A stretch of 64,000 bases of DNA from Azolla caroliniana (Eukaryota; Plantae; Polypodiophyta), in contig JBHGNT010000017.1 in NCBI GenBank assembly GCA_043228905.1, positions 6,324,001 through 6,388,000 of the forward strand, in the 5' to 3' direction. How positions within the stretch are numbered: the first letter of the stretch is position 1; each line of letters starts with the position of its first letter. This document shows, one piece after another, positions 22,486 through 60,031 of the stretch. The notes below the pieces were generated by a model. It was given only the letters and a program-made list of their open reading frames with translations, was not told the DNA's origin and did no database searches. The position numbers and the translations under genes are program-made.

Positions 22486-25400
22486 TGTCGTGGCGTGGCT
22501 CATCCAGAAGCATAGCATTGCATAGACAAAAGATAACGTGCAAGTGAGGAAGGAATCGTTGGGATTATGGACGGAAGAGATGAAAGAGTAGAGATGAAGT
22601 GTATAGAGATCGATAGGATATGGCAAGGTAGGATTTTTAAGAAATATGAGATACGGCAAGATAAGATATAACATGATATTTGAGAAAATGTAGGAAATTT
22701 ATAATTATTATCCTGAAAGAGTTACAAAATGGCTACGAGCGTCTTTGGACCTTCGATCTTTGTCTCACAAGGTAGTCACTCTTCTCTTTCTTGATAGTAG
22801 ACCACAATCTTCCCTTCTATCTTTCGATGAGGAAAAGAGTCGAACCTCCGCCTTTTCGTTGCGAGTTGAGCGTTGCCGCCACTAAGCTAGTTCTTCTCTT
22901 GTCTTTTGAAGATTGTATATAACTTTTACCTTCTCTCCCTCTTTCTCTATTATGATATCTCTTACAATATAATTTCGCTCAATTCCATACAATAATTCTA
23001 TTCAATATGATTGATTGATTCCCTGATATACGGGTGACTATACTCCCTTCTCCTTTTATAGGAATGGGATGGTTTTGCATGTGGGCCATATGTCACACAT
23101 GCAAAGAGGGGCTCTTGCATGTGTGCTATATGGTGCACATGTAGTATATTACATGGTGTAGACTATACAATGCTACTTCAAATAAAACAACACATTTTCT
23201 TTTACACATATAATGACTATTGGCTTAATGGTAGGCTTTGAGGTTCATAATGTGGAGGTTGTTGGTTCAAGTCTTCTCTGACCCATGTAATACAATTTAT
23301 GGTGCACATGTAGTACATTATATGGTTTAAATCCATATAGTACATTATATGGTTTAAATCCATATAGTACATTATATGGTTTAGGATTTAAACCATACAA
23401 TATTACTTTAAATAAAACAAGCCATATAATTTTATATATACTACAATAATAGGGTAAATGGTAAGGTTTTAGAGTCATAAGGTGGGGGTTACTGGTTCAA
23501 GTCCTCTCTTCTCCATATAATATAATATATATATATATATTATTTGCCTCTATATATAATGTATAATATTATCATAGTATGTTTTTTAATATTAACTTTA
23601 TAAAACATTATCAATATATATTTTATTTTAGTTACGTATATATCTTCTGGTAGACTTTTAATGTGAAGTTTTCGTACTTCACAACATCCAGCCCCTCTAG
23701 ACCTGCACATCCTCTAGCATGTGCCACTATCTTTCATCTTCATGTTGATCTATTGGAGGAGGTTCAAACTCAAACCTTTTTTAAAATACTTTTATCCTCT
23801 TTCCAACTACCATGTTTTGGATTAGTGTCCCATCCAATTCAGTAAGTTTATAAGTAAAGTTATCATATACTTTTCTTACTATGTAAAGCCCAAACCATCT
23901 TTAAGCAAACTTGCAAACGGTGCTATGTTGATTATCTAAACTGCTATCATACATGCGTACCCAATCCCCTTCTTCTATTTTCTTAGGCTGAATTCTGTGA
24001 GTTTTATCAAAACGAATTTTATTCTTTAGTCGAGCCTCCTTCAATCATTGGGTTGTCAATTCTATATCTTCAAGTTAGCGTTCTAATTGTTGAATTCGCA
24101 AAGCAAGCAATTATTCTCTGCTCACCTCCTCTCTCCATGGAATAGATATCCATGACATAATTGATTCTTCTACTAGCATGATGGGCTTTTGGCCAAGTAT
24201 CAATTCAGTTGGCATGTATCCTGTTACCGAACTATGCGTTGTTTGATCTGCGCATAGTGCATAAGGTAGCACGTGTGGCCAATTGCTTATTTTACCTTTA
24301 CAGCTTTTCACAATCGCCTTAACTATTGGGCTATGTCCTCTTTCAATCTTTCCATTGGCTTCTAGATTATACGCAGTTGTAAGTGATAATTTGACCCCTA
24401 TCCGGCTGAAGAATTCTCTAGTTTCATCAGAGTCAAGTTCTCCTCTATCTGCAATTGTTTTACCAACACACCCATAACGACATATTACATCTTCCAATAG
24501 AAATTTACATACAGCTCTAGTTGTTTTTTGTCGTAGTGGTCTTCCTTGTACTTGGTTTGTAAGGTCTTCTCTTGCTAGTACTAAATATCACATTTGACCT
24601 CCCCAAGTGGCATTGTCACTAGATCGACCAACCATTTATAATGCATTGATGATGAATATGTTGGTTTTAGCTTATCTCGATACCGGATAGTTGAATACCT
24701 CTGGCAGACCTCACAGGTTTCCACAAACTTCGTTACATCTTTATATATATGTGGCCACCAATACTTTTCTTTCAACTTCATAAATGTCACCCATATGCCT
24801 CTATGTCCTACCCACAAACTATCATGGAATTCATTAATTAATTTTCTCTTAAGGTCATCCTTACAAATTACTCGAAGAGGATTTTTGGTTGGCCTTTTTG
24901 GACGCCTCCATAAATGCCCTTCATGTAAAAAAAACTTGAATGCTCGTCTTTGAAATTCATTTAATTGTTTCTTTGATCATGATGGGTTGGCTTCTTGAGT
25001 CTTTTGAAAAATTCTTATTTCTAACCATTGACCTTCATACTCTACGTCTTTGAACATTAAGCTTACATTAAACTCATCATGAGGCTTAATAGATACTTGA
25101 TGACAAACTTGATGGCTCATAGTTGCCCAATTCTCATCTTCAATTTCCCCAATTCTTATCTTCATTTATGAACCTTGCTCTTGATAGCATATCTGCGACT
25201 AGGTTCTCTTTGCCCTTTATATGCAGTAATTCTAGGTTCATGGTTCTGATGTATGCAATCCATCGAAGCATTGCAATATCTGGTGGGGTGCAACTTGCTA
25301 TCATTCCGATGAGTGGTAGACAATCTGTTTCAACCACTACATCTACTCCGATCAAGTAATCTCTATTTGTTTTTAATGTAGTAAGCAAACCCCACAATTC

Positions 25401-30099: not shown

Positions 30100-32534
30100 T
30101 GTCGTGCCTTTCGGCTCCGGATCGTTTGCGTGAGTCGGGTGGGAACCGCCGAGGTTTTGGACTAGGAGAAAGAAAAATACAAATAAGGCTAGTAAAGAAT
30201 AGGTATAAAGAGTTATAAGATAAGAATCTCGTGAATCCCACGAGTTTAGTATATTTAGTCAATATTTAGGTAGTAAGAGAGAATTATTTTAGTAAATTCA
30301 TGAATCCCACGAATATTTTAGATTGATTGATCATTATAGAAAAATAATCAACAAAAACTACAATGTGCTCCCCATCCTTATATAGTGATGGGAGAGACTA
30401 AGCATAGCTACATGCTTTTTCTAATATGTTCATGCACACTAAATGTGCATGTGATGCCTTTCTAATCCTTGCTTTTATTTGCTAAATATAGTGCTCATGC
30501 ACGGTAGATGTGCATGAGTCACTTTTTAGTTGCTTGCGTTTTTCTATAAAATATTCACGCACTCTAAAAATGCATGATTTACCTTTTAATAAAGGTAGGC
30601 GCAAATAAAGCACTTATAGTTATTAAATCTATTTATAGAACACTAAAGATAAGGTAGCATAATGGTAAAGTTGAGGTTTGGCTACATGGAGGTACAGGGT
30701 TCGAATCCTGCCCTATGCACGTGATAAATATCTTGATATATTACTTTATTTATTTATATGTAATTAAATCGGTTATATTATTTTTACTTTTTCACGTAGT
30801 GTACGAAATACACTACGACACTCGCCCCCTCCGAACCCGCACATCCTCCGGTATGTGCCGAAGTTGCCGATGCTCGTTGTCTCCCCTTCATCCTCCGTTT
30901 GTCCCGCTATGTCAACTTTGTCTCTCCATTTTGAGTAGACCCATTCTTTCCACCCGAACCATTGTCGCCATCCGATCCACCATATTCTTTGTTCTCTCTC
31001 GTCATATTCTTGGCCCTTGTCATTCGTGGTAGTGTCTTTTACTGGCCTCTTTGTTGTCTTTATCAACCTTGACTTTTTTCCGGATCGCTCTCGTCCGATC
31101 GACTTTCAGTTTGATCGGCTTCCGATCGGATTCGTATTCGGCCGAATCGGAATCGGTTGTTCGGTTTCGATTGAGTCGGTCTCCTTCCGGCCCGGTTTCG
31201 ATCTATTGGTTTCGGTTTCGGTTGGCTTTCTTTTCCTCGTTTTCACCAGCCTCGACCGGTCCAACCTTCGGTTGATTCGGATTAGCTTCTTTCCAGATCG
31301 GTCTCGTCCGATCGGCTTTCGGCTAGGTCGGCTTCCATCCATATTCGCGTTCGGCCAAGTCAGACTCGGTCGATCGGTTTTGACCGAGTCGACCCCTTTT
31401 CGGGTCGGCTTTCTTTCGGGTCGTCTTTCGGCCGAATCCTCATTCGCCCGGTTCGGCTTTCGTTTGTGTCGTCTTTCAGCCGAATTCTCTTCCTTTCGGT
31501 TCGGCTTTCTTTCGGGTCTACTTTCGGTCGAATCCTCTTTTACCCGGTTCAACTTTCTTTCGGATCGGAATCCCGTCCGGATCACCTTCCATCCTAACTA
31601 GCTTCCGACTTTACCTTTCTTGCCGCCACCTCCCGTCTCTTCGGTCTCACGTTGCTTCTCAGACACAACCGCCGAAGTCTCTAGGATTAGTGGGCAGGAA
31701 TCCTCGGTATTATCATCCTCCGTTGTTTCACCCATAGCCATATTCTCGGCTATCTCTCCGTCATACACATCGGCTTCGACCTTTGTTTTCTTTCACGTCG
31801 GGTTCACCAACTGTGTCGTGCCTTTCGGCTTCGGATCGTTGCGTGAGTCGGGTGGGAACCGCCGAGGTTTTGGACTAGGAGAAAGAAAAATACAAATAAG
31901 GCTAGTAAAGAATAGGTATAAAGAGTTATAAGATAAGAATCTCGTGAATCCCACGAGTTTAGTATATTTAGTCAATATTTAGGTAGTAAGAGAGAATTAT
32001 TTTAGCAAATTCGTGAATCCCACGAATATTTTAGATTGATTGATCATTATAGAAAAATAATCAACAAAAACTACAATGTGCTCCCCATCCTTATATAGTG
32101 ATGGGAGAGACTAAGCATAGCTACATGCTTTTTCTAATATGTTCATGCACACTAAATGTGCATGTGATGCTTTTCTAATCCTTGCTTTTATTTGCTAAAT
32201 ATAGTGCTCATGCACGCTAGATGTGCATGAGTCACTTTTTAGTTGCTTGCGTTTTTTCTATAAAATATTCACGCACTCTAAAAATGCATGATTTACCTTT
32301 TAATAAAGGTAGGCGCAAATAAAGGACTTATAGTTATTAAATCTATTTATAGAACACTAAAGATAAGGTAGCATAATGGTAAAGTTGAGGTTTGGCTACG
32401 TGGAGGTATAGGGTTCGAATCTTGCCCTATGCACGTGATAAATATCTTGATATATTATTTTATTTATTTATATGTAATTAAATCGGTTATATTATTTTTA
32501 CTTTTTCACGTAGTGTACGAAATACACTACGACA
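30100..32534 (-). mobile_element. Young non-autonomous LTR element I (TRIM/LARD-like; about 720 bp LTRs, about 1 kb internal region without pol)
   Basis: Near-identical LTRs 30100-30820 and 31814-32534, Trp PBS 31792-31809, PPT 30821-30832, TSD ACGT. Confidence 0.95.
30655..30708 (+). promoter_or_regulatory. tRNA-derived Pol III A box/B box pair in LTR of I (copy at 32369-32421)
   Basis: TAGCATAATGG...GGTTCGAATCC, spacing 43 nt. Confidence 0.7.
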
Positions 32535-34575: not shown

Positions 34576-34838
34576 TGTGCAGAATAGAAGCTCGGCCACA
34601 ACCAAGTTGAACACTCAATGGAAGAAAACAGAAAATAGAAATGAAGATTAATGCACTTACACTGAATGAGGCAACACCAGATGTTTACATGGAAAACCCT
34701 AATCGGGAAAAACCATCGAAGCCCACAGACTCCAACTATCTCTATTAGAGGAAGAATACAATGCGAGGCTCAGAGGCAATGACCTCGATCCCTATGTCTT
34801 CGCCAATCGGCGCTTACAACAGAAAAACTTTCTGTATA

Positions 34839-41381: not shown

Positions 41382-41434
41382 TGGTGTAATGGCAAGGGCT
41401 CAACCTATGTAACATAAGGTCATGGGTTCAAATC
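41382..41434 (+). promoter_or_regulatory. tRNA-derived Pol III A box/B box pair in LTR of N (copy at 58466-58518)
   Basis: TGGTGTAATGG...GGTTCAAATC, spacing 43 nt. Confidence 0.7.
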
Positions 41435-43730: not shown

Positions 43731-46655
43731 ATTACAACCTCCCTTATGCCACCGGCTACCGAGTTGACTACCACTGAGATGCCGAAGATGTTGATGTATA
43801 AGGAATAGAAGCCCTAAAATATCTTGAGTAAGAAGTATAATAGAAGCAAAACTCTCAAACCCTAAAATCCTAACTCCTCTAGTATGTTGAGGAGAAAAGA
43901 AGAAAAGTAGAAAGAAGAAGCTCTCAAACCCTAACCCTAAAATGAAAAGATGAAAGAGAAAGTGATAAGGAGAAAGTGAGGCTACCAAACCTTAACCCAA
44001 GAAGAAGAGGAGAAGATGAAACCCTAGTGGTATACCCCTACGGCAAAATGGGCGAGTTACAACCTCCATTATGCCACCGGCTACCGAGTTGACTACCACT
44101 GAGATGCCGAAGAAGTTGATGTATAAGGAATAGAAGCCCTAAAATATCTTGAGTAAGAAGTATAATAGAAGCAAAAGTCTCAAACCCTAAAATCCTAACT
44201 CCTCTAGTATGTTGAGGAGAAAAGAAGAAAAGTAGAAAGAAGAAGCTCTCAAACCCTAACCCTAAAATGAAAAGATGAAAGAGAAAGTGATAAGGAGAAA
44301 GTGAGGCTACCAAACCTTAACCCAAGAAGAAGAGGAGAAGATGAAACCCTAGTGGTATACCCCTACGGCAAAATGGGCGAGTTACAACCTCCCTTATGCC
44401 ACTGGCTACCGAGTTGACTATCACTGAGATGCCGAAGAAGTTGATGTATAAGGAATAGAAGCCCTAAAATATCTTGAGTAAGAAGTATAATAGAAGCAAA
44501 ACTCTCAAACCCTAAAATCCTAACTCCTCTAGTATGTTGAGGAGAAAAGAAGAAAAGTAGAAAGAAGAAGCTCTCAAACCCTAACCCTAAAATGAAAAGA
44601 TGAAAGAGAAAGTGATAAGGAGAAAGTGAGGCTACCAAACCTTAACCCAAGAAGAAGAGGAGAAGATGAAACCCTAGTGGTATACCCCTACGGCAAAATG
44701 GGCGAGTTACAACCTCCCTTATGCCACCGGCTACCGAGTTGACTACCACTGAGATGCCGAAGAAGTTGATGTATAAGGAATAGAAGCCCTAAAATATCTT
44801 GAGTAAGAAGTATAATAGAAGCAAAAGTCTCAAACCCTAAAATCCTAACTCCTCTAGTATGTTGAGGAGAAAAGAAGAAAAGTAGAAAGAAGAAGCTCTC
44901 AAACCCTAACCCTAAAATGAAAAGATGAAAGAGAAAGTGATAAGGAGAAAGTGAGGCTACCAAACCTTAACCCAAGAAGAAGAGGAGAAGATGAAACCCT
45001 AGTGGTATACCCCTACGGCAAAATGGGCGAGTTACAACCTCCCTTATGCCACCGGCTACCGAGTTGACTACCACTGAGATGCCGAAGAAGTTGATGTATA
45101 AGGAATAGAAGCCCTAAAATATCTTGAGTAAGAAGTATAATAGAAGCAAAACTCTCAAACCCTAAAATCCTAACTCCTCTAGTATGTTGAGGAGAAAAGA
45201 AGAAAAGTAGAAAGAAGAAGCTCTCAAACCCTAACCCTAAAATGAAAAGATGAAAGAGAAAGTGATAAGGAGAAAGTGAGGCTACCAAACCTTAACCCAA
45301 GAAGAAGAGGAGAAGATGAAACCCTAGTGGTATACCCCTACGGCAAAATGGGCGAGTTACAACCTCCATTATGCCACCGGCTACCGAGTTGACTACCATT
45401 GAGATGCCGAAGAAGTTGATGTATAAGGAATAGAAGCCCTAAAATATCTTGAGTAAGAAGTATAATAGAAGCAAAAGTCTCAAACCCTAAAATCCTAACT
45501 CCTCTAGTATGTTGAGGAGAAAAGAAGAAAAGTAGAAAGAAGAAGCTCTCAAACCCTAACCCTAAAATGAAAAGATGAAAGAGAAAGTGATAAGGAGAAA
45601 GTGAGGCTACCAAACCTTAACCCAAGAAGAAGAGGAGAAGATGAAACCCTAGTGGTATACCCCTACGGCAAAATGGGCGAGTTACAACCTCCCTTATGCC
45701 ACCGGCTACCGAGTTGACTACCACTGAGATGCCGAAGAAGTTGATGTATAAGGAATAGAAGCCCTAAAATATCTTGAGTAAGAAGTATAATAGAAGCAAA
45801 ACTCTCAAACCCTAAAATCCTAACTCCTCTAGTATGTTGAGGAGAAAAGAAGAAAAGTAGAAAGAAGAAGCTCTCAAACCCTAACCCTAAAATGAAAAGA
45901 TGAAAGAGAAAGTGATAAGGAGAAAGTGAGGCTACCAAACCTTAACCCAAGAAGAAGAGGAGAAGATGAAACCCTAGTGGTATACCCCTACGGCAAAATG
46001 GGCGAGTTACAACCTCCCTTATGCCACCGGCTACCGAGTTGACTACCACTGAGATGCCGAAGAAGTTGATGTATAAGGAATAGAAGCCCTAAAATATCTT
46101 GAGTAAGAAGTATAATAAAAGCAAAACTCTCAAACCCTAAAATCCTAACTCCTCTAGTATGTTGAGGAGAAAAGAAGAAAAGTAGAAAGAAGAAGCTCTC
46201 AAACCCTAACCCTAAAATGAAAAGATGAAAGAGAAAGTGATAAGGAGAAAGTGAGGCTACCAAACCTTAACCCAAGAAGAAGAGGAGAAGATGAAACCCT
46301 AGTGGTATACCCCTACGGCAAAATGGGCGAGTTACAACCTCCCTTATGCCACCGGCTACCGAGTTGACTACCACTGAGATGCCGAAGAAGTTGATGTATA
46401 AGGAATAGAAGCCCTAAAATATCTTGAGTAAGAAGTATAATAGAAGCAAAACTCTCAAACCCTAAAATCCTAACTCCTCTAGTATGTTGAGGAGAAAAGA
46501 AGAAAAGTAGAAAGAAGAAGCTCTCAAACCCTAACCCTAAAATGAAAAGATGAAAGAGAAAGTGATAAGGAGAAAGTGAGGCTACCAAACCTTAACCCAA
46601 GAAGAAGAGGAGAAGATGAAACCCTAGTGGTATACCCCTACGGCAAAATGGGCGA
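43731..46655. repeat. 325-bp tandem array, 9 near-identical copies, telobox-rich
   Basis: Period 325 is seen directly and in the repeated 91-aa ORFs. 2925 bp = 9 x 325. Each unit has three AAACCCTA motifs. Confidence 0.98.
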
Positions 46656-46786
46656 CCCTCAAATAAGCGCTATCGCTCCTCTTTTATAGAGGAAAGAGGA
46701 GCTTATTTTAACATTACGTGCTTTTATTTCTTTCTTTATCACAAAAATGGAAGGAGAAGGGAAGCAAAATGCTTTGTAGGAAGAGA

Positions 46787-46840
46787 GACTCGAACTCTAC
46801 ACCTCTCTACATATACTTATAGGCCTTAACCACTAAGCTA
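46787..46840 (-). promoter_or_regulatory. tRNA-derived Pol III A box/B box pair in LTR L
   Basis: Minus strand TAGCTTAGTGGTTAAGGC...AGTTCGAGTC, spacing 44 nt. Confidence 0.65.
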
Positions 46841-48379
46841 CTACAAGTTACTTATTGTTTATTATTTTTATTCTTTTTTCTACATTATTTCATGAGATGT
46901 GTGTGGAACCTCGCTTTTTCTCACAATGCACACGCCACACCACGACAACGTCCTACCAAAACTACGAGGTGCTGGTGGAAGATAAGCGAGCGGGAAAGGG
47001 CGGAGGAGCCGGACCCTCTGGCCAGTACGAGACGCGGAGCGTGCCGAAGAGAAATGACGCCGACATTCCCGGCTCACAGGAAAGACCAAAACCGGCAAGC
47101 TACCGGCTAGGCTTAGAAATAAAGAAGGCGACAAACTTACGGAAAGTCCTTGAAGAACGAATCCTCTACAACAGGGTGGACCTGTCTCCGAGGGAAGTGG
47201 TGGGAATCGCTAAGAAGGAGTTCCACGACTCCATCGTAGACATGGTGACGCATAAAAGGCTCGCGACAGAGCCGGAACCGAAAAAGCCCATGGAAGTGCG
47301 AACGACGTACTTAGATGACACGGCTGTCGAAGATGAATTGGCAGATAGCCACTACTCGAAGCTACATTGGGTGCGAGCGACTACTGAGACCCCCGTCCGG
47401 ATCGGGAACATTGAAGAGCCGGTGGTGGCCCTAATAGACTATGGATCCAAAATAAACCTGATGTCCATGGATTTCTACAAAAAATGGAAGTGGTCGATCA
47501 ACACCAAGCATGGGTGGAAAATACGTGCGGCTATGCGTGATACGAAGAAGCTACACGGGGCATGCCTAAATGAAAACTTGAAGATTGGCGATGTCGAGGT
47601 CGATCAACACTTTTTCGTGTAGGAGACTTCCTCACGCTCGGTGATTCTCGGTGAACCATACATTACAACGGCCCATATGGAGACCAAAGTGCTTGAGAAC
47701 GGTTTAGTGTACGTGCGGGTGAAAAGCTAAAACAGACGCTACTTCGTCTAATTTATTACTGTGCGACCGAACCATGAGCGTAACCGCAAATCTCTCGGCA
47801 GTGACGACTGAGAGGATTTTTAGAAAGGGCTATCAAGGCGTGGGGCCATGATAGTCCAAACACCCTAGAGAAACCCCACACGTGTACCATAGTGATGAGG
47901 TGTTTAAGACAAAGGATAATCTTACACTATATGAGGGCTTGAACAAACCGGTTACATGGAGTTGTGACTCATAATATATTATATAGATCAAGAGAGACTC
48001 AAGAAATTAAGAAAAAAGGATAGAGAAGATGAGAAAGAGATAATATTGTTATGATATTCCAACATCAAGACAATACAAAGGAGATAAACTCCACATTCAA
48101 CTAAGAAACCAAAGACCTTCTTACTACCAATCACCAAAAAATTACAATTAAGACCCTTCCTCTTTCACTAAGATTTCTCTTCCTAAGACTCCCTCTCCTC
48201 TATTAGGATCCTCTCCCTCTTAATTCTTTTTCTTATTAGTCCTTCCACTTCTTCTTTTTCCTCGTTCACGCTGTCGTAGTGTATTTCGTACACTACGTGA
48301 AAAACTTATAAAGTACCGATTTAATAAATATGAATAAATAGTAGAAAATATTAAAATGTATATAACATGCATAGGGAAA

Positions 48380-48432
48380 GATTTGAACCTTGCACCTCCA
48401 TGTTAATAATGTAATGTCTTACCATTACACTA
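48380..48432 (-). promoter_or_regulatory. tRNA-derived Pol III A box/B box pair in LTR of J (copy at 51075-51127)
   Basis: Minus strand TAGTGTAATGG...GGTTCAAATC, spacing 43 nt. Confidence 0.7.
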
Positions 48433-49085
48433 GCATTTCATTAGTGTTCAAAAATAGATGTTCCACATAGAAAGCTTAGTTCACCTAGGATAAACTTTAG
48501 TTAAAAGAAAACGCATGCTAAAAGAAAAAGCTACGCATGCACATCTAGCGTGCATGAACGCTATAGTTGATAAAAAATGCACAAGTTAGAAAAAACATGA
48601 TCACTTTAGATAAAGCATATAGTCTATCTATAGGAAAAGCATGGAGTCTATAGTTAGAAAAAAAAAGCATGGATTCCTAAGACTCCCTTATCACTACATA
48701 AGGATGGGGAGCACAATGTAATAGGGGTGTGTGAAATATTTAGAAATTGGATATATTTCCGAAAACACCAACCGATTAATATAATCATGGGATTCACGAA
48801 AATAATATAATCTATACTTGTGGGATTCACAAGTTTCTTATATCTTTCTTTCAATCTAAATACATATTCTTATCTAAATATTGATTAATCGAATACAATA
48901 CACTCGTGGGATTCACGAAATTTCTATCTCTCTTTCTAATAATCTATTCATTACTAGCCTCATCTCATATTCTTCTTTCTCCTAGTCCAAAACCCCAGTG
49001 GTTCCCACCCGACTCACGCAAACGATCCGGAGCCGAAACGCACGACACAGTTGGTGAACCCGACGTGAAGACGGGTAGCAAGGAG

Positions 49086-50354
49086 ATGGAAAATCAACAA
49101 AAGGCCAACATGATGATGATGTTCGAGAGAATGCTACAAGAACAACGTGCGATGTCGGAGATGAAGTCGGCAGTAGAGCGGCTTGTGCAACGAAACGGGC
49201 AATTCAACGGAAATGATGTGTCATGCTATCTACGTGAATACAAGGCGGAGATGATGCGATGTGGGATACCAGAAGGATTGCAAGTGATATCCTTTAGCCG
49301 GGTAGCCACGGATGAGTTACAAGAAAGAATCTACAAGATACGGCAACAAAATCCAACATGGGGGTCCTTTGAAGAAGCTTTACGAGAGGCATATGACTAC
49401 GAGAGATCGAAGGGACGAGATCGACGCGAGTTTGACGAATGGGTGGCATCAGAGAAGACCCACCGAAGTGCAACACAAGCATTCCTAGAGTTTGAGCATC
49501 GTCTTGCTCGACTCTCGGAGCGGGAACAACAATTGGTGGGGGAGGATAAAGTCCTAATGTTCGTAAAATCGATCGATCGAAAAGAAAGGATGGACATCGG
49601 GATCGAACTCGAAGACGATGAAGGTACAAATGGTCTTACCGAAGATTGGGCCAAAGTCCAAAGGGTATGCCGGAGACATGATGAGAGGAAGATGAGAATC
49701 TTGTCAACGACATGGCCGATGAAGGATGGTCGATTGAAGACAAACGATGGAGCCGATATGAAGGCCTTCGGAATACAAGTGTCTGAAACATTGGGTGAAA
49801 AAGGGGTAAGCATAATTGATGTTTGCATAATTGATGCAGTGAAGGAGAGTAAGGAGGACTTGATTGAGGAGGTCACCAAGAAAGATGACATCGAATCGAA
49901 GGTGGCTATGGACGAATCAATGGCGGATGGCCATATCGAGATTTCTCCACCGCTGATTCCAGAGACTCTGGCGGTTACGTTCGAAAGGCAACGTGAGACC
50001 GAAGAGACGGAAGGTGGTGGAGAGAAAACAGAGGTTGAAGCCGATTCATACGACGGAGAGATAGCCGAGAAGGAGGCTATGGTTGAAATGATAGAGGATG
50101 ATAATACCGAGGGTTCATGCGCACTAATCCTAGAGGCTTCGGCGGTTGCGTCCAAGAAGCAACGTGAGACCGGAGAGACGGGAGATGGCGGCAAGGAAGG
50201 TAAAGTCGGAAGCCGGTTCGGATGGAAGATGATCCGTCTGAAATTCCGATGTAAACAAAAGCACGACAACGCGAAGGTCGGGTCTACGATGGGAGAAGCA
50301 TGTAATACGGAGCACGCGCTACGGCACCAAAAGAAGCACGTGCTACGGCGTTAA
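49086..50354 (+). CDS. Gag-like protein (422 aa) of element J with acidic C-terminal extension
   Basis: Uninterrupted ORF. GQFNGNDVSCYL..YKAEM, KVLMFVKSID and GLTEDWAKV match the gag of element A (GRFSGKDATKYL, RVLLFVKSVD, GLTTDWAAV). Confidence 0.8.
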   Translation: MENQQKANMMMMFERMLQEQRAMSEMKSAVERLVQRNGQFNGNDVSCYLREYKAEMMRCGIPEGLQVISFSRVATDELQERIYKIRQQNPTWGSFEEALREAYDYERSKGRDRREFDEWVASEKTHRSATQAFLEFEHRLARLSEREQQLVGEDKVLMFVKSIDRKERMDIGIELEDDEGTNGLTEDWAKVQRVCRRHDERKMRILSTTWPMKDGRLKTNDGADMKAFGIQVSETLGEKGVSIIDVCIIDAVKESKEDLIEEVTKKDDIESKVAMDESMADGHIEISPPLIPETLAVTFERQRETEETEGGGEKTEVEADSYDGEIAEKEAMVEMIEDDNTEGSCALILEASAVASKKQRETGETGDGGKEGKVGSRFGWKMIRLKFRCKQKHDNAKVGSTMGEACNTEHALRHQKKHVLRR

Positions 50355-52114
50355 GAGAAGCACACGCTACGGCGCAAAAAGAAGCACGCGCTACGGTGCA
50401 AAAAGAAGCATGCACTACGGGGTAATACGACGCATGCGCAACATCGAGAAATAAAGCATGCATTAAAGCCGCACAAGGACCTAATAGCGAGCGCGTATTC
50501 GGAGGTCGACATCGACGCGTGGGTAGAACCTACAGAAGACAAGCGCGGAGTGGAGAGAGACAACACACCGAGATGCTCAAGAGTACCACAAGGGACCATG
50601 ACAACCACTCATGGCAATGCAAAGAATGAACGAAGATTATGGTGGATCGGATGGCGACAATGGTTCGGGTGGAAAGAATGGATGTGCTCAAAATGGAGAG
50701 ACAAAACTGACATAGCAAGAGAAACGAAGGGTACAACAAGTAACGAAGAATTACGAGGGCCGGTAACCAGAGACCGGACAGAGCCGGCAACTGAACTGAA
50801 CCGGAAACCGGCCGGAGTCGGCAACCAAAAACCGGAGACCGAACGGGGCTGGCAACCAAAAATGACCGGTGACGAAACCAACCATGCGGAGAACGGATAG
50901 ACGAGACTAACAATCACCGACAACTTCGGCACATACCGGAGGATGTGCGGGTTCGGAGGGGGCGAGTGTCGTAGTGTATTTCGTACACTACATGAAAAAC
51001 TTATAAAGTACCGATTTAATAAATATGAATAAATAGTAGAAAATATTAAAATGTATATAACATGCATAGGGCACGATTTGAACCTTGCACCTCCATGTTA
51101 ATAATGTAATGTCTTACCATTACACTAGCATTTCATTAGTGTTCAAAAATAGATGTTCCACATAGAAAGCTTAGTTCACCTAGGATAAACTTTAGTTAAA
51201 AGAAAACGCATGCTAAAAGAAAAAGCTACGCATGCACATCTAGCGTGCATGAACGCTATAGTTGATAAAAAATGCACAAGTTAGAAAAAGCATGATCACT
51301 TTAGATAAAGCATATAGTCTATCTATAGGAAAAGCATGGAGTCTATAGTTAGAAAAAAAAAGCATGGATTCCTAAGACTCCCTTATCACTACATAAGGAT
51401 GGGGAGCACAATGTAATAGGGGTGTGTGAAATATTTAGAAATTGGATATATTTCCGAAAACACCAACCCATTAATATAATCGTGGGATTCACGAAAATAA
51501 TATAATCTATACTTGTGGGATTCACAAGTTTCTTATATCTTTCTTTCAATCTAAATACATATTCTTATCTAAATATTGATTAATCGAATACAATACACTC
51601 GTGGGATTCACGAAATTTCTATCTCTCTTTCTAATAATCTATTCATTACTAGCCTCATCTCATATTCTTCTTTCTCCTAGTCCAAAACCCCAGTTGTTCC
51701 CACCCAACTCACGCAAACGATCCGGAGCCGAAACGCACGACAACGCTATTTTTAGAAGCTTTTTATCTCCTATTTTTAGCTAAGACCCAGCGACCTTCTA
51801 ATCGTCATATCTCCATCATCATAGCTCCAAATTTAGTGATTTAAACATCTATAGATATCTCTCTTTACAAGCTTTCTAACCCATATTTAAACATAATATT
51901 TGGGCCACACACGAAGGAGTTATGACCATTCCTTTTTTACTTTTTTTTATGGTCCGCTTTTTCTCTTTTTACTTTTCTCTTGGTCTCGTACTTTTACTTT
52001 TGACTTCTTCCTAAGGTCTTGGTTCGTGTTCTTAGCTTCCAAATGTGAGTTATCCATACTTTATAGTCTTCTAATGTTCAATGGCTTAGATTCTAAAAAT
52101 ACTTTCACACATAG

Positions 52115-55100
52115 ATAGGAAATTTTGGTTCTCCGACAACGTCCGGGAAAAGAAGCAGGTCGAAGAGCGTTTAAGGGCGTGCAGTGCCCTTAGCTCTGAA
52201 GACGAGATCAGCGGTGCCATGGAGGCAGTCTCTTTCAATGATGCCCTTGGAGAGATCGGGGTGGTAGCTAATGAAGGCTTGAGCGAAGACCGGGTAATTC
52301 TGGTCAATTTCGTGGAAGTGTACGAAGTCATTACGGAGTTCTTGGAGAAAGTCGGGTCGGGGAAGATGGCCCTAGTTGACACCAAATACAAGACTGTGAA
52401 CTGGAAGGTGAGGCCTGTCGTGGCTCCCTTGCTAGAGAGCAGCAAAGAGCGGATGAAAGGGGTCACATCAGACCCAAGTTTGCGGAATCCGGCCGGCATA
52501 GGGCATCGGTTCACCGACGATATGCTACGGGAGCTGAAGATTGGTGGGGGTGGCTTCCTACTGCCTGCGGAAGAGGACCAGTTTCAGAGGATGCTCGGGA
52601 GGCACAGGAAGGCCTTCGCATTCTCACCGGAGGAGATCGGGTGCATCGACCCGACAATCATAGAGCCGATGGTTATCTTCACGATACTGCACGTGTTGTG
52701 GAATCTCAAACCAATTCCGGTACCTAGAGCTCACATCTCGAAGCTGATGAAGCTACTGAAGCAGAAGGTGGAGATGGGCATCCTCGAGCCGTTGAGTGCC
52801 CCATATTCGAATCGGTGGTTTACGGTGTCGAAAAAGATCGGCACATTGCGCTTCATTCAGGACCATCAATGAGTTCGCGGAGGCCTTCACTAGAAGGTCG
52901 ATCTACTCGGTTGGTGATCTATACTCAGGATATGATCAATTCCAACTAGCCATAGAGATTAGGGATATTACAACGATGCGGACCCCTCTCGGCTTAGTGC
53001 GGATGTGTACCGTGCCACAAAGAGGAACCAACTTGGTGGCGCACATGGTGAACGCCATGAACAAAATGTTGAGGGACTGCATCCCGAACATCACCATGCC
53101 AGTTTTGGATGACATCCCGATCAAGGGATGTCCGGTAGAAGAGAAGGATTAATCGGTCGGACCAAACGGATGTCGGATGTTCGTGACAGACCATATCAAC
53201 GACTGCCAGAAGGTGTTATACATGCTCGAAGGTGCATAGCTCACCTTCTCCGGAGAGAAGATGGCTTTCAGGAAATCCGAAATCTTGGTGGTTAGGCACT
53301 TGTGTGGGCTGTATGACCGGAAACTGTCTCCGGCGAAGTTGGAAGCCATCTCCGCGATGAGTGAAGAATGCAAGTCGGTTACAGAGGTTTGGAGATTCCT
53401 GGGGGCGTGCGCATTATACCATATCTGGATTCAGCATTACGCACACGTCGCGGAACCGCTCTATGGGCTGTTGAAGAAGGGCCGCAAATTCAAATGGAAT
53501 GAGCAGCACACGGAATTGGTCTGACGGTTGAAGGAGGTGCTTGCCACGGCACTGGCCCTTCGAAAAGTGGTTTACGGAAAGGATACCCCGGTTTACGTGA
53601 CCGTGGACACGAGCCCGACCGTGATCAGATGGGTGGTCAATCAGGAAGACAAAGACGGCGTAAGGTTCCCCATCCGATTCACAGCGAAAGTATTAAGCGA
53701 GCGGCAGCGAGGATACGCCCAGGTTAAACGTGAACTTTGGGGTATTGTTTCGACAGCCAAAACCGACAAAGACTATTGATCGGGACAGAGGTGGTAATCG
53801 AGACAAGCTGCCTACCTATCCTAGGTATGGTTTCCAGATGCGCGACTTCAGACCTGGCTATGCTCGAGTCAATCGCGTATGTCAAGTCCCTAAACCTGGA
53901 GATCCAACACGTCTCCGGTAAAGACAACGCCATGGCCGTGTGCTTTCAAGAGCATGCTTTGACAACAAAGTCGGCATGGTGTCAGAGGATGAAGAAGTCG
54001 GCGCGGACTTCTTCGAGTCGGCTCACGTAGCAACAAGGGAGGGGAGCACTCCGAGATTGAATGAGTTTAATGAAAACGAGTAGGATGGGGAGTTGCTCCA
54101 GATAGGCAGATTCTTAAGGACATTGGCACCAGACACAGCATGGACGAGGGATGAGGCAAACATGATCAGGAAGAAGGCGTATCGGTTGTTCCTATGGAGT
54201 GGGAGCATATAGAGGCATCCGAAGAAGTGTAACGACATTCCGCTCCACGTAGTGATAAGAAGGGAAGAGCACAAGGCGCTATTATCAACGTACCATGAGA
54301 GCCCTTGGGCTGGTTAGCGTGGAATGTGGCCACGTTTGAGAAGCTGAAGGAAAAATACTGGTGGCCAGGAATGTACCAGGATGCGCATCAATTCGTGACA
54401 ACCTACGAAAGTTGCCAGATGCATTCTGTGATCCAGCACACAAACGAGTTGCACCTGACCTACCCGCCGACCATCCATTTCAAATGGATGGTGGACTTAG
54501 TGACGATGCCAATGGGAGTGGGGCAAATACGGTACCTGGTGCTTGCACGGAAGGACCTGATGAACCAAGTGGAGGGTCGTGCACTGCAGAACAAAACGAC
54601 CGCGACCGTATGCCGGTTCCTAATCAAAGAGGTGGAGTTTGCCAGTATAGATGCGTGGGGAAGATCGTGGCCAACCAGGAAGAACTGGATGCGCAAGAAC
54701 CCGAAGAGCTGTTTGGCCGGTCGGGGGTAAAACTCTCTCTCACTACGGCGTACAATCTGGAGGCCAACAGGAAGGTGGAATGCGGATACGATCCTATCAT
54801 GAAGGCGCTAGTGCGGGTGTGCGAGGGGCAAGTCGGGAATTGGCCACAACTCCTACCTTACACGCTTTGGTTGAACCAAACTACGCACAGTTTGGTGACT
54901 GGGTTTATGCCGACAAAGCTTATGTATGGGCAAAAGCCGATCATGCCAATGGAGTGGACGATCTCTTCATTGGTAGCAATCGACTTGGCAGACGAAATGA
55001 GCCGAAAGGAGCTATTGGCAGCGCGGATTCGCTAACTCGAGTGGAGCCCGGAGGACGTGGAACGCGCAAAGGCGAAATTGTATGCGGCGCGGAAGAAGAA

Positions 55101-55446
55101 GAAGGACCGGTTCGACCGGACACACCGGCTGAGACCAAAGAAGATCGAGAAAAGCAACTGGGTGTTGATTTACAATAGCAACCTCGACAAACAGCATAAG
55201 GCAATGCAGAAATTCGCAAGGAGATGGTTCGCGCCCTACGTTGTGATGAGAGTGAATGACAACGCCACGTACCATCTCGGAGAGCTCGACGGAACACGGA
55301 GGACGGTACCGATTGAGGGAAAACGGATCAAGGCATTCAAGAAACGGTACGAGGACGAGTTGGACCCGGGTTGCGATGATGAGAATGACGACCTGGAAAG
55401 AGCGAACACAGGAGGGAAGGTCGACAAATCGGAGGACAACGAGTGA
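52115..55446 (+). pseudogene. Gypsy K pol (RT, RNase H, integrase), heavily disrupted
   Basis: Motifs GTLRFIQD, GDLYSGYDQF, VLDD, FLGAC, GKDNAMA, KWMVDLVTM and PYVV..NATYHL. Confidence 0.92.
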
Positions 55447-58113
55447 TAAATGGCCGGTTCTTCCTCATATATATATATCGGCACATACCGGTGGACGTGC
55501 GGTTTGGTGGGGGTAGATGTCGTGGGGGAAACCGGTTACAAGAAGAAATGGAGACCATAGTTGTGTGAACCGCAACGTGCATGGATGCACGCAAATGATA
55601 AACTATGCTTGTAAATAACCTAGGACTAGGCTAGGTTGGCATGATGTAGGAAACTTTAATAGGACGAATTGAACACATGAATAAATCTAGGCGAATCTCT
55701 GCCCTCTCTCTCGTTGGTCTATAAAAGCAGGGGGAGAGGACTGAGTTGGGGATCACGCGTTCAGGGAAAAGGAAGTGTTGTTGGACTGGGAACGGAGCAC
55801 CCGCTCTCTGTTGTCTACTTTGTTTTTGTTAGCACCGACGCCTCTGCTCGCGTAGGAAGCCCACGTGCTCCCGTCAGAGGCTCCTGTAGTATCTTGGTGT
55901 GTGGGTGTGTGCGTTGTTCGCTGAGCTCATAGCTCAAACCGGGCTGAGTCTTCCATTCATCTCCTAGTCGAATACGTACGAGGTTATATGCTCCTCGCAA
56001 GTCGATCTTTATGAAGAACCTTGCACCATTGATCCGTTCTAAAAGACTTGAGATAAGGGGGAGTGCATACCTATTCCTGATGGTGACCTTATTCAAACCA
56101 TGGTAATCTACGACAAGACGAAGTGATCCATCCTTTTTCTTGACAAAGAAAATGGGTGCGCCAGTTGGAGATTTGGAATGTCGAATAAAACCGTTTGCCA
56201 AATTCTCCTCTATATAGACTCGAAGGACTTCTAGCTCGGTTGGTGACAAGTTGTAGATCGGGCCCCATGGTGCCTCTTTTCCCGGTTGTAAATCAATGGA
56301 GCAATCATACTGTCAGTGGTGAGGAAGTGTATTGAATTGTACCTTATCGAACAAATCGATATAACGACGATACGTCTCTGGAAGTTGAACTATGGATTCC
56401 TCTTTAGTGGTGTTAGAGAAGGTTTTTACTGATACTGCGAAGACAAACATTCCTTCCTTGCGTCCTTCCTCACGCAATTGGTGTAGAGAAATGGTTGGAG
56501 TCCTATGAGTAGATCCCCGAATTTCTCAGGTGCTAAGACTTGTACTAGAGGAATACTTTTAGTACTAACCATTACTTGATCAAGAGTTGGCTCTGGAATC
56601 TAAGAGTGCTAAGACATGTACTGGAGGAATACTTTTAGTACTAACCATTACTTGATCTAAGAACACATTGCTAACTTGCTTAGAGGAAATGGAATCACTA
56701 ATGGGTTGCACAGATCTAGGGTTGTCCAACCAAAGAGCTCCTATTTTGGCTGGACTTAATCGTTTAACTCTTCTTCTAGTTGACTAAGGATTTCAAATTT
56801 GTTTGAAAGGCTTGGGCTATTAGTACTATTAGGACTATCAAATATTCCTATTGAAATAGACTCGGGGACAGTTCACCGCAACTAGAACTAGCAACTATTT
56901 GGTTTACCTGTCTTCTTGGCCTATGGGGATAGTTCACCGCAATATGCCCTGGTCCACCGCAATAGAGACATAGTCGATTTGCTCGGCGCCGTTGCTTTTC
57001 CTCTTCCGATAATGGTCCGCGACGATGTGTGGTGTCGATTTCCATCGGAGTTGGAGTATTTGCTGGAGACACATTATATGGGGACAGTTCACAGCAATAT
57101 GCCCTAGTCCACCACAATAGAGACATAGTTTATTTGCTCAGCGTCGTTGCTTTTCCTCTTTCGATAATGGTCCGCGACAATGTGTGGTGTCGATTTCCAT
57201 CGGAGTTGGAGTATTTGCTGGAGACACATTATATGACTCCCTTGGAAAAGGTTTTGCTACAATTGAGGCGTAGGTGGGCTCTGATCTTGTACTTGGCATT
57301 TGGAACTAACGTTCCGAACGTCGTTCGAAAAGGCGGTTATGGCACCGCGCAACTAATTGCTTCTGTTAATGATTTTGGCTCTTCGGGGAAAGTTAAGAGT
57401 AAATCCTTGACATCATTACGTAGGCCAAAACGATATTGTTTCATTTATGCCTAATCATCGAAGGGAATATCAGTGGCTTGAAGACGCAAATCCGTGGCAT
57501 AAGCCGAGGTCGGCTGCTCACCTTGGCGCAATCTTCGGATTTTGTTGATTGTCTTCCTAACACTATCAGTATCTCCAAAACAGGCTTTAAACTCGCTAAT
57601 AAAACTCTTAGAAATTATTTAACAAGGGATAGTTTTTTTCTAACGGGGGAGCAAACCATGCCAAAGCCATGCCACTAAGTAGCGTGCCTACTAGTCCCAC
57701 TCGTGATGCATCGGTGGGATATCGAGAAGGATACGTTTGAATCACTAAGCGTACCTGATTAAGAAAACCTCTGAACTGTGATCGGGTCCCATCAAATTTC
57801 ATAGGAAGTCTGATCTTGGGTTCTTTTTTAGTCCCTTGAGCACTTGATCCTTGTTGTTGTAGTGATACAATAGTCGCTTCAAGTTTTTGTACACGTAACG
57901 TCAGCTCCCCGTGTTGTTGTTGTTTTTCTAAAGCTATTTGTTAAAGATCCCCCCACAGACGGTGATTTTCTTGTTCTAATGCTACAAACTTCTCTTTTAA
58001 GCACTGGAGCTCTGAGAAAACAAATTGGTATTCCTAAGCACTAATAGTTGCCATTTTACTATGGAGGATAAGAGGATTAGTATGAAAGAAAGGAGGGGTG
58101 AGAGGATGAGGAA

Positions 58114-58125
58114 AAATTGGTTCAA
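58114..58125 (-). promoter_or_regulatory. Self-priming PBS of Tcn1 element N
   Basis: Minus-strand TTGAACCAATTT just inside the 5' LTR is complementary (11/12) to AAATCGGTTCAA (58316-58305), which lies about 30 nt downstream of the TATA-like box. Confidence 0.7.
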
Positions 58126-59305
58126 ACGGTCAGGAACAGTACTAAGACAGAGAGGGAATTAGTACTAAGAGAGAGAAAAGGGTGTAGAACTCAGAAGAGA
58201 AGGAGAGGGAGAGAGAGGGAGAGAGAGAGAATAATGATAAGAAAAGATATAGTATATTATATTAAGAGTAAGTACAAGAATAAGTATGAGGTTTCAGATT
58301 GGCGTTGAACCGATTTGGTTTGAAACAATGGCTTGTGCCTCCTTTCATAGTGTTTTCAGGAGTACTCTTTAAGTTTCTAGAATGTTCTAGAGATATCTAG
58401 AAATATACATCAATTTTCTATAGTGAAATAATAAATGAAAATAATATCCTTCGTATTACAATATATAGTCTAATGGCAACAGCTCGACCCATGTAACATA
58501 TGGCCATGGGTTTGAATGTTGCCATATCATGACGATCATAAAGTGTTTTCTTTATGTCATATTTACACTTACATGAGTTTAGAACTATTTACAAATATGG
58601 CCATGATAGGCACATGAGAAACATATTTACAAATATGTCCCTAGATCCGGTTCACACCGTATCCATCCAATCCGGCTCCTCCGGTTCTCTTTTGGATCCC
58701 ATCCGAAGGGACTGAATTCCCAACAAGCTCCCCCTTCAGTCCGACATGGGATGTCTTATCAATCTGATCCGTCTCCTGCACAGGTCCAGCTTGTCGGTTG
58801 ACACCACCTTGGGAAGCATGTCCGACCCATTTTCCTTTGTATGGATCTTTGTTAGCAAGAATTCTTTATCTTCTACCTTCTCTCGGAGCCAGTGATATCT
58901 CCTTTCGATGATGTGATTGGTCCGTGAGTGGTAGGCTGCATTCTTCTGCAACCTCGACTGCCACGATACGACTCGCCCTGCATATGTCATGACATATCCA
59001 AATGTGGATTAGATGGTATCTACATTAGCCGACATGTTTGAGTCCGTAAAGCCTTCCAAAACGGGTTTACCGGAGCTGAATCAGAGGCACATCCTCGAGG
59101 TGTCTTTCAAGAACCGGAGTATCCACTTGACCGCGGTCCAGTGCTCCTTTCTTCTCGGAATGCTCATAAACCGATTGACCACTCTGACAACATATCCGAT
59201 ATCCGGTCATGTATACACCATTGCGTACATCAAGCTTCCGACAGCAAAGGCATATGGTATCTTCATCATTTCCGAATTCTCTACCTTTGTCTTCATCATT
59301 TCCGT

Positions 59306-60031
59306 TGTCGTGCTTTTCGGCGCCGGATCGTTTGCGTGAGTCGGGTGGGAACCACTGAGGTTTTGGACTAGGAGAAAAGAAAATTCTAAGGCAATGAAGA
59401 ATATGAAATATGTTGTAAGAAAGAAAGATATGAAAAACTCGTGAATCCCACGAGTATAGTGTATTAGTGAGTACTCAAATTAAGAGAGAAAAATAGTTAG
59501 CAAATTCGTGAATCCCACGATTATATTATATTAATCCACCCTTATAAAATAAGCAACAACCCCCCATACATCTTTCTCTCCTCATATAAGGATGGAAGAG
59601 GCTAAGCATAGCTTCATGCTTTTTCTAATGTGTTCATGCACACTAAATGTGCATGAGTTGCCTTTTTACACTATGCTTTTATTTCCTAAATATAGTGCTC
59701 ATGCTCGCTAGATGTGCACGAGTCATTTTTTATTGGTGTACATTTTTCTTATAAATAAAGTATTCACGCATTCTAAAAAATGCATGACTTACCTTTTAAT
59801 AAAGGTAGGCATAAATAAAGGTCTTATATGTATTAAATCTATATTTAGAACACTTAGGATAAGTTAATATAATGGTGAGGTTGGGGTTTGTTTATGTGGA
59901 GGTATAGGTTTCAAATTTTTCCTTATGCATGTAGTAAATATTTTTAATATTTTATTTTATTTATTATACGTACTTTAAATCGGATATAGTATTTTACATA
60001 TTTCACGTAGTGTGTGATTCACACTACGACA
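59306..60031 (-). mobile_element. Solo LTR of the I/J family
   Basis: TGTCGT...ACGACA, collinear with 30100-30820. The flanks (CCGT/ACGC) do not match and the two sides are unrelated, consistent with inter-element recombination. Confidence 0.88.

What the first reader, a model, noticed from the sequence alone, without database searches (positions are those of the whole stretch)
23221..59917. tRNA-type Pol III promoters (A box + B box) built into the U3 end of four different LTR families
Seen: ten A-box/B-box pairs at 23221, 23450, 30655, 32369, 41382, 58466, 59865 (plus strand) and 46840, 48432, 51127 (minus strand). A-to-B start spacing is always 43-44 nt, and all lie within about 15-470 bp of the LTR 5' end, upstream of the Pol II TATA box. 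They occur in LTRs with no other evident similarity: Tcn1 chromovirus N, Gypsy H, the I/J family and L. The boxes and spacing are kept while cloverleaf stems have largely decayed. Orientation is antisense in N, H and I/J and sense in L. Established: this spacing matches U8-G53 of class I tRNAs, Cassandra TRIMs carry 5S Pol III promoters in their LTRs, and TFIIIC-bound B boxes act as chromatin barriers in yeast and mammals. Inference: these retrotransposons convergently captured tDNA promoters, either as insulators that keep their promoter usable inside heterochromatic nests or as sources of short antisense RNA.
Basis: partly seen in the sequence, partly recalled or inferred. Interest (0 to 1): 0.8.

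Follow-up and report, generated by a model that had tools for sequence, protein, structure and literature searches.

The report
Backward tRNA promoters in moss LTRs
Several families of jumping genes, likely from a moss, carry near the start of their terminal repeats a worn, mostly backward-facing tRNA gene that has kept its two promoter boxes but lost its cloverleaf, which likely serves as a docking site for the tRNA transcription machinery that helps keep the element's own promoter usable, although binding and function are untested.

Summary
All ten A/B-box pairs are present and far above chance (9 pairs at spacing 43/44 versus 0.02 in shuffles), plus an eleventh, sense, at 22889. They are tRNA-derived units with decayed stems. 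The labels need correcting. N, H and L are Phygy-type (Trp-type PBS; NCGN TSDs for N). The Tcn1-type chromovirus is I; J has no unit. The units are family-wide. In 122 related loci, 9 of 36 complete LTRs carry one at the same place, and 21 of 23 U3 units are antisense. Invariant box positions vary less than the rest of the unit (10/60 versus 108/288 columns). Against function: C56 of the B box is mutated in 27-38% of N-family depth, and most Phygy LTRs lack the unit. No RNA or chromatin data were available. Best reading (0.45): DNA-level TFIIIC/Pol III sites next to the LTR's Pol II promoter; a passenger relic is the main rival (0.3). tRNA boxes in LTRs are known (Helenus/TRIMp3), but in tiny elements; these fail that membership test. 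This scan noted similar cassettes in fungal genomes. New variant of a known kind.

The parts
22486..23686 (-). 3' LTR of H (Phygy-type, degenerate gag-pol 23733-29193; PBS 29297-29313; truncated 5' LTR 29319-29740)
23214..23284 (+). tRNA-derived unit Ha (A box 23221-23231, B box 23264-23274), antisense in U3 of H
23444..23514 (+). tRNA-derived unit Hb (A 23451-23461, B 23494-23504), tandem duplicate of Ha, antisense
30100..32534 (-). element N1: non-coding Phygy-type derivative, LTRs 30100-30820 and 31814-32534 (710/721 identical), Trp-type PBS at 31809, TSD ACGT
30648..30718 (+). unit in N1 3' LTR (A 30655-30665, B 30698-30708), antisense; TATA at about 30385
32362..32432 (+). unit in N1 5' LTR (A 32369-32379, B 32412-32422), antisense
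41007..58534 (-). element I: Tcn1-type chromovirus, LTRs 41007-41450 and 58128-58534 (357/409 identical), TSD ATCAC/ATCAT, DUF4939 gag, RT fragment, predicted self-priming; J, L and N2 are nested inside
41375..41445 (+). unit in I 3' LTR (A 41382-41392, B 41425-41435), antisense, ending a few nt from the LTR 5' end
58459..58529 (+). unit in I 5' LTR (A 58466-58476, B 58509-58519; C56 mutated), antisense
41506..42104 (+). 5' LTR of J (Phygy-type, gag-pol); carries no unit (negative case)
43334..46947 (-). solo LTR of family L inside J gag, inflated by a 325-bp x 9 tandem array; its relative L080 shows a 1209-bp LTR and an internal part of about 210 bp with Trp-type PBS and PPT
46776..46847 (-). 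unit in L (A 46840-46830, B 46796-46786), sense, followed by T runs, then TATA at 46689
48272..51742 (+). element N2: gag-only Phygy-type derivative, LTRs 48272-49047 and 50967-51742 (768/776 identical), Trp-type PBS at 49052, TSD ACGC
48369..48439 (-). unit in N2 5' LTR (A 48432-48422, B 48389-48379), antisense
51064..51134 (-). unit in N2 3' LTR (A 51127-51117, B 51084-51074), antisense
59306..60031 (-). solo LTR N3 (flanks CCGT / ACGC, not matching)
59858..59928 (+). decayed unit in N3 (A 59865-59875, B 59908-59918), antisense

Best explanation
These are tRNA-derived A-box/B-box units fixed near the start of the LTRs of several Gypsy families, mostly pointing away from the element's Pol II promoter, and they likely persist as DNA docking sites for TFIIIC/Pol III that would help keep that promoter open inside repeat-dense chromatin. 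Shown: the units, their position, orientation, family-wide presence, loss of stems and better-kept boxes. Inferred: capture from tRNA genes or tRNA-derived SINE heads, at least twice or once with later transfer (Phygy-type N, H, L and Tcn1-type I); spread by swapping and duplication of U3 blocks; and selection acting only on the few master copies that replicate. Also inferred: antisense orientation, or a T-run stop before the TATA in sense L, would keep Pol III from running into the Pol II promoter. The units cannot be the promoter of the genomic RNA. Untested: TFIIIC binding, transcription, any chromatin effect.
For: (1) Spacing spike at 43/44 in the window and in 122 loci chosen only by their PBS. 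(2) The unit is in 9 of 36 complete LTRs: 8 of 8 in one LTR cluster, 1 of 1 in another, 0 of 27 in ten other clusters. It is also in four partial LTRs. A profile trained on window units alone gives 19 loci hits above the best reversed decoy (7.6 bits), one of them a real tRNA. (3) In 4 runs the N unit is covered as deeply as the rest of the LTR. No substitution at or above 3% is listed at T8, A14, G18, G19, G53, T54, T55, A58 or C61, and no indel within the unit. (4) Within 6 groups of related units, 10 of 60 invariant box columns vary against 108 of 288 other columns (Fisher p=0.0016; all 19 box positions 30/114, p=0.036). Pooled pairwise identity is A 0.83 and B 0.80, against 0.70 between the boxes and 0.71/0.64 in the flanks. 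(5) Stems are lost while boxes stay, so the constraint is on DNA motifs rather than a tRNA fold. (6) The unit is duplicated in H, L043 and L047, and a second, sense unit lies downstream of the TATA in H, L043, L047, L054 and L070, bracketing the promoter. (7) L002, with gag 84% identical to N2, lacks the unit but has a 17-bp x 12.5 array at LTR 95-307 that reads as antisense B-box-like cores (2 exact; 11 hits within 2 mismatches in the LTR versus shuffle mean 1.8, max 6 of 300; one contig, copies not independent). (8) tDNAs act as insulators in yeast and animals (PMC7544208, passage).
Against: In N copies C56 is read as T in 27-38% of laid depth in all 4 runs, against 2.5-7% at the CpG at 30685. 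Many copies therefore have a dead B box and show no sign of protection, or C56T sublineages still amplified. G10 is T in 46% of depth in one run. In the N alignment the B box (0.63) is no better kept than the flanks (0.62/0.67), and in the I LTR pair it is worse (7/10 versus 92/103). 27 of 36 complete LTRs, including the abundant A/J-type with pol, have no unit. Most units were first found by their boxes, pairs within groups are not independent, and nearly all loci come from one series of assemblies. TFIIIC tolerates variable spacing (recalled), so the fixed 43 nt is not predicted by this model. My searches found no paper showing TFIIIC barrier activity in plants.
Confidence: 0.45

Rival explanations
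1. Passenger relic: a tRNA-derived SINE head or tDNA landed in U3 of one or a few masters and hitchhikes with a useful U3 block (RY motifs plus TATA). The antisense bias would only reflect loss of sense insertions that disturb polyadenylation or the promoter.
For: B-box CpG heavily mutated in N copies. B box not better kept than flanks in N and I. All 9 unit-bearing LTRs also have 2 or more RY motifs, against 5 of 27 others (members related), so a linked block could carry it. Most Phygy LTRs lack it. Positions 44-47, outside the boxes, are also kept in 10-11 of 11 family representatives, as shared descent would give.
Against: Invariant positions, several of them G/C and so prone to decay, are kept across families whose inter-box sequence matches at only 9-20 of 32 positions between N, H, I and L. 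No indel between the boxes within the aligned groups, while flanks have gaps. Repeated duplication, second sense units and the L002 array. No free-standing copy outside an LTR in the window.
Confidence: 0.3
2. Small-RNA cassette: Pol III makes short RNAs of about 65-230 nt, antisense to U3, that would regulate the element or soak up host silencing, like the Pol III miRNA units in foamy-virus LTRs.
For: Runs of 4 or more T follow within about 65-230 nt of the predicted start in 20 of 23 U3 units. The T arm is the best-kept stem (70%). Foamy-virus precedent (PMC3993851, passages).
Against: No conserved fold: arm pairing does not beat cross-unit permutation for the D, anticodon or T arm (p=0.70, 0.44, 0.07; acceptor 0.013). 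Inter-box sequence and predicted length differ widely. I has no terminator inside the LTR.
Confidence: 0.15
3. Targeting device: the unit acts as a landing pad for elements that aim at Pol III genes, or tethers the element's own cDNA to tDNA-rich chromatin.
For: Earlier notes on fungal genomes report insertions at fixed distances upstream of LTR-borne boxes (e1-10420520, e1-10420559; unchecked). Real tRNA genes lie beside 2 of 122 Phygy loci (L028 about 203 bp from the LTR start; L017).
Against: No insertion sits upstream of any of the 11 units in the window, and no joint is listed across the N unit in 4 runs. L028's LTR has no unit.
Confidence: 0.07

Closest known systems
Helenus / TRIMp3 (Kojima 2024, PMC10886601; read parts 1-4 of 6, searched passages and the one supplement held as text)
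   Same: tRNA-derived sequence in both LTRs, boxes A and B conserved, tRNA function lost, PBS and PPT present, origin by SINE/tRNA insertion proposed. The paper notes in passing that 'not a few LTRs' in Repbase contain part of a tRNA, but analysed only TRIMs under 1000 bp.
   Different: Helenus is 311-1263 bp and is proposed to be transcribed by Pol III; the only plant family is from Selaginella (120-bp LTR, 5-bp TSD), and no moss or liverwort name was found in the supplement. Here the LTRs are 0.4-1.2 kb with a Pol II TATA, the elements are 2.4 kb or more, some encode gag or gag-pol, and 21 of 23 U3 units are antisense.
Cassandra TRIM (5S rRNA promoter in LTR; as described in PMC10886601)
   Same: Pol III promoter embedded in a plant LTR.
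   Different: 5S (type 1) promoter, sense, and it drives the element's own RNA; here type 2 boxes that cannot produce the genomic RNA.
Phygy and Tcn1 lineages (Neumann et al. 2019, PMC6317226; passages and supplement rows)
   Same: Phygy: 4-bp NCGN TSD (100%), tRNA-Trp PBS (81%), matching N, H, J and L080. Tcn1: chromovirus of mosses and club-mosses, self-priming, matching I.
   Different: The passages seen do not mention Pol III boxes in their LTRs.
Foamy-virus LTR Pol III miRNA cassettes (PMC3993851, passages)
   Same: Pol III units with A/B boxes in U3 of a long LTR that also has a Pol II promoter.
   Different: Those encode conserved hairpin miRNAs with shown expression; here there is no conserved hairpin and no RNA evidence.
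tDNA / B-box chromatin barriers of yeasts and mammals (PMC7544208 passage; further detail recalled)
   Same: TFIIIC-binding boxes placed at the edge of a promoter region.
   Different: Those are host loci with tested barrier activity; here they are carried by mobile elements in a plant and untested.

Membership tests
Helenus (TRIMp3) | tRNA-derived sequence with conserved A and B boxes in the LTRs | tested here: met
Helenus (TRIMp3) | not a functional tRNA | tested here: met
   ARAGORN 0; stems 44-70% paired versus 89-100%
Helenus (TRIMp3) | TRIM size (311-1263 bp), non-coding | tested here: not met
   N1 2435 bp, N2 3471 bp with gag, H with gag-pol, I with gag and RT; L080 LTR 1209 bp plus about 210 bp internal
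Helenus (TRIMp3) | Pol III promoter placed to transcribe the element | tested here: not met
   21 of 23 U3 units antisense; in sense L080 a T5 run lies at LTR 200 and 16 runs of 4 or more T follow the unit
Helenus (TRIMp3) | 5-bp TSD in plant Helenus | tested here: not met
   N1 ACGT and N2 ACGC are 4 bp; only I has 5 bp
Helenus (TRIMp3) | actual Pol III transcription | not testable with these tools
   no raw RNA reads were offered
Phygy (for N, H, L, J) | 4-bp NCGN TSD | tested here: met
   N1 ACGT, N2 ACGC; L has ACGT on one side only, J CCGG on its one intact side; H not assessable (5' LTR truncated, left flank TTCT)
Phygy (for N, H, L, J) | tRNA-Trp PBS | tested here: inconclusive
   N1, N2, H, J, A and L080 share one PBS type; that it is Trp is recalled, not checked against a tRNA set; Phygy is 81% Trp
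Phygy (for N, H, L, J) | placement in the Phygy clade with REXdb references | not tested
   no reference set available; H, J and A share one pol lineage whose named homologues are from Riccia and Adiantum
   N has the same tRNA-type PBS as H and J, and its gag is 35% identical to A gag
Tcn1 chromovirus (for I) | chromodomain-bearing Tf1/Sushi-like pol | tested here: inconclusive
   integrase is deleted here; many full-length homologues 80-93% identical over the RT fragment carry PF00385
Tcn1 chromovirus (for I) | self-priming PBS | tested here: inconclusive
   sequence after the 5' LTR is 11/14 complementary to LTR position 219, about 34 nt after a TATA-like box
tRNA-derived SINE insertion | own TSD, 3' tail, free copies outside LTRs | tested here: inconclusive
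   no free copy in the window; TSD and tail were not searched systematically; no whole genome available
tDNA/TFIIIC barrier | TFIIIC occupancy and B-box-dependent block of silencing | not testable with these tools
   needs ChIP and reporter assays

The most novel reading that the evidence does not exclude
Bryophyte retrotransposons of two distant lineages have armed their LTRs with portable TFIIIC boundaries. Backward tDNA units sit upstream of the Pol II promoter, in some families a forward unit sits downstream so that the promoter is bracketed, and in one relative a pure B-box array takes the unit's place. This would be an anti-silencing strategy in which the element borrows the host's Pol III machinery, and evidence that tDNA-type barriers work in plants.
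Probability: 0.3. Interest if true: 0.8.

Novelty: new variant of a known kind. Interest (0 to 1): 0.52.

Why it matters
If the boxes are bound and needed, retrotransposons that pile up in heterochromatin would carry their own means of staying transcribable. That would give a direct way to test whether TFIIIC-bound boxes act as barriers in plants, in a group with a tractable model (Physcomitrium). It would also extend Pol III-promoter capture from tiny TRIMs, where it drives the element, to large Pol II LTRs, where it must do something else. If they are passengers, they still show U3 blocks moving between families, and they can confuse tRNA and SINE annotation in moss genomes.

Tried and rejected
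No whole genome was held, so no genome-wide count. No RNA holder was listed for the N element; the one run guessed as RNA was flagged as probably DNA; this says nothing on expression. Donor tRNA type: the free 22 positions of 23 units were compared with 44 distinct real viral tRNA segments and none beat shuffles (lowest p 0.064), so no isotype is assigned and single versus multiple donors stays open. Gag tree (47 rows; 5 with unit, 17 without, 25 unlabelled; rows under 85 aa, including L059, left out): 5 changes, at least 3 forced, no better than shuffled labels. This fits swapping or repeated gain and loss, but 5 rows give little power. Viral collection: no Phygy PBS or pol hits. 19 distant chromovirus-like contigs (35-42% identity) plus one bacterial PBS-pattern hit, 116 kb in all, had no unit, so no second Tcn1 family could be tested. 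Longer flanks for five 300-nt loci were not available, which leaves the sense units of L092, L100 and L111 incomplete. The Rfam MIR1023 hit at 40282-40474 is below threshold and unrelated. 'Four convergent captures' was rejected as unproven; 'N is Tcn1' and 'I/J family' were rejected. The 22889 A box may be partly an accident of decay, since its two other copies differ there and have a dead B box. Literature searches found no description of antisense tRNA-type boxes in moss Phygy or Tcn1 LTRs. The library lacks most subscription papers and Repbase entries, which may hold such notes.
Full report
Setting. The window is a nest of retrotransposons. No whole genome was held. The named homologues of the main Gypsy RT are from Riccia and Adiantum, and the lineages present are described from mosses, so the host is a non-seed plant, likely a moss (inference).

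Observation. All ten pairs are present. With recalled generic boxes, the window has 9 pairs with at most 2 mismatches at spacing 43/44, against 0.02 in 100 shuffles, and 11 against 0.15 at any spacing from 30 to 60. ARAGORN finds no tRNA and a whole-window Rfam scan gives no tRNA hit. On two units scanned alone, tRNA is the top family at 14-15 bits against a cut-off of 29. Arms pair at 44/57/47/70% in 23 U3 units, against 100/89/97/99% in 75 real tRNAs. The units are tRNA-derived and are not tRNAs.

Which elements. N1, N2, H, J, A and a further element at 244 share one PBS type. N1 and N2 have 4-bp TSDs, ACGT and ACGC. Neumann et al. 2019 (PMC6317226; passages and supplement rows) give 4-bp NCGN TSDs and 81% tRNA-Trp PBS for Phygy, and self-priming for Tcn1. 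N is therefore a non-autonomous Phygy-type family (N2 gag 35% identical to A gag), not Tcn1. The pairs at 41382 and 58466 are in the two LTRs of one element, I (41007-58534). It has a TSD of ATCAC/ATCAT, a PPT, an 11/14 self-complementary PBS, a DUF4939 gag and RT homologues with a chromodomain, so it is Tcn1-type. J, L and N2 are nested in I, and J's LTR has no unit. L is a solo LTR. Its relative L080 shows a 1209-bp LTR and about 210 bp of internal sequence with the same PBS type and a PPT. The unit is thus in three Phygy-type families and one Tcn1-type family.

Independent sequences. Box pairs again spike at 43/44: 10 of 12 hits with at most 2 mismatches, one of them a real tRNA. A profile from the window units alone recovers them above reversed decoys. 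Of 36 complete LTRs (35 pattern calls, 2 dropped as short or doubtful, 3 added by hand), 9 carry an antisense unit with its A box 119-261 nt from the LTR start. These are 8 of 8 in one cluster and 1 of 1 in another; 0 of 27 in ten other clusters have it. Partial LTRs in L051, L073 and L078 add antisense units, and L080 a sense one. In all, 21 of 23 U3 units are antisense. H, L043 and L047 have duplicated the unit. H, L043, L047, L054 and L070 have a second, weaker sense unit downstream of the TATA, so the promoter is bracketed; the last four are related, and single hits of that quality are within chance. LTRs are mosaics: L054 joins parts of two groups, and L002, with gag 84% identical to N2, has a different U3. 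On a gag tree of 47 rows the 5 unit-bearing rows are scattered. Either several captures or block swapping would fit, and the donor tRNA could not be assigned.

Is it under selection? For: within six groups, 10 of 60 invariant box columns vary against 108 of 288 others (p=0.0016), and all box positions 30 of 114 (p=0.036). Pooled identity is 0.83 and 0.80 in the boxes, against 0.70 between them and 0.71/0.64 in the flanks, with no gap between the boxes. In contigs of four runs per call the N unit is covered like the rest of the LTR. No change at or above 3% is listed at nine invariant positions, and no indel in the unit. L002 has, in place of the unit, a 17-bp array whose repeats read as antisense B-box-like cores (a single contig, a hint only). 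Against: C56 is T in 38, 33, 34 and 27% of depth, while the CpG at 30685 is changed in 2.5-7%, and G10 is T in 46% in one run (contig depth is a rough measure). In N the B box is no better kept than the flanks (0.63 versus 0.62/0.67), and in the I pair it is worse. Three quarters of the complete LTRs lack the unit. Positions 44-47, outside the boxes, are also kept. Most units were found by their boxes, and the comparisons are not independent. The balance favours constraint on the boxes over long times, with free decay in genomic copies, but not decisively.

Mechanism. The unit cannot drive the genomic RNA. It points outward in most families, and in L it is followed by T runs before the TATA. 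What is kept is the DNA motif pair, not a fold. The most likely role (0.45) is a TFIIIC/Pol III docking site at the outer edge of the Pol II promoter that keeps it accessible in master copies. Barrier activity of tDNAs is known in yeast and animals (PMC7544208, passage); my searches showed no plant test. Rivals: a passenger on a U3 block with RY motifs and TATA (0.3; 9 of 9 versus 5 of 27 LTRs with 2 or more RY); a short-RNA cassette as in foamy viruses (0.15; PMC3993851, passages); a targeting device (0.07). Binding, transcription and effect are all untested.

Known versus new. Kojima 2024 (PMC10886601; parts 1-4 of 6, passages and supplement search) describes Helenus TRIMs with tRNA-derived boxes and notes that other LTRs hold tRNA pieces. 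He expects autonomous partners to use Pol II and lists only Selaginella among plants. The elements here share the boxes but fail on size, TSD and placement, so they resemble Helenus in origin and are not members. Searches found no report of this in Phygy or Tcn1 LTRs. PMC13437025, PMC7466625 and PMC8825457 were seen as passages only and added nothing on it. This scan has unchecked notes on similar cassettes in fungal genomes, none by sequence for this family, and none on this feature among the 8 of 45 notes shown for this genome. Verdict: real, family-wide and probably constrained; new variant of a known kind; interest 0.52.

Noticed in passing
L002 LTR positions 95-307 (locus about 496-708): 17-bp x 12.5 tandem array whose repeat reads as an antisense B-box-like core, in the U3 position where its close relative N2 has the tRNA unit.
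   Followed up: partly
window 43732-46655: 325-bp x 9 tandem array (99% matches) grown inside the L solo LTR; the relative L080 has one copy.
   Followed up: partly
L080 1-1473: Circular contig of a non-coding Phygy-type element: 1209-bp LTR, about 210-bp internal part with PBS and PPT; a large-LTR TRIM-like family.
   Followed up: partly
window 30702-30703: The B-box CpG is several times more mutated among N copies than the CpG at 30685 in four runs; unexplained.
   Followed up: partly
U3 of N, H and L001, L009, L043, L047, L054, L059, L070, L071, L073: Clusters of RY (CATGCA) motifs, mostly between the unit and the TATA; RY is recalled as a B3-factor site, which might link expression to ABA or desiccation.
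   Followed up: partly
L028 1150-1224; L017 2244-3042: A tRNA-Arg(CCG) gene about 203 bp from a Phygy LTR start, and three tandem iMet-like tRNA copies upstream of another PBS; a possible hint of insertion near tRNA genes.
   Followed up: no
L098 28-303; L100; L092; L111: Further sense tRNA-like pieces within 300 nt of the LTR 3' end; L098 has a 278-bp LTR with spacing 48 owing to a 5-nt duplication.
   Followed up: partly
window about 59575-59600: In solo LTR N3 the TATA segment appears inverted relative to N1, and the flanks (CCGT/ACGC) do not match.
   Followed up: no
L004, L013, L014, L025, L033, L054, L067, L071, L079 and others: Many Phygy 5' LTRs are directly preceded by a PPT, pointing to tandem or shared-LTR arrangements, or to collapsed assemblies.
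   Followed up: no
window 40282-40474: Near-perfect inverted repeat (42-nt arms, 95%) giving a sub-threshold MIR1023 hit; MITE-like or hairpin.
   Followed up: no
window 36096-39352: LINE with endonuclease and RT, ending in a 54-bp x 6.6 tandem repeat.
   Followed up: no
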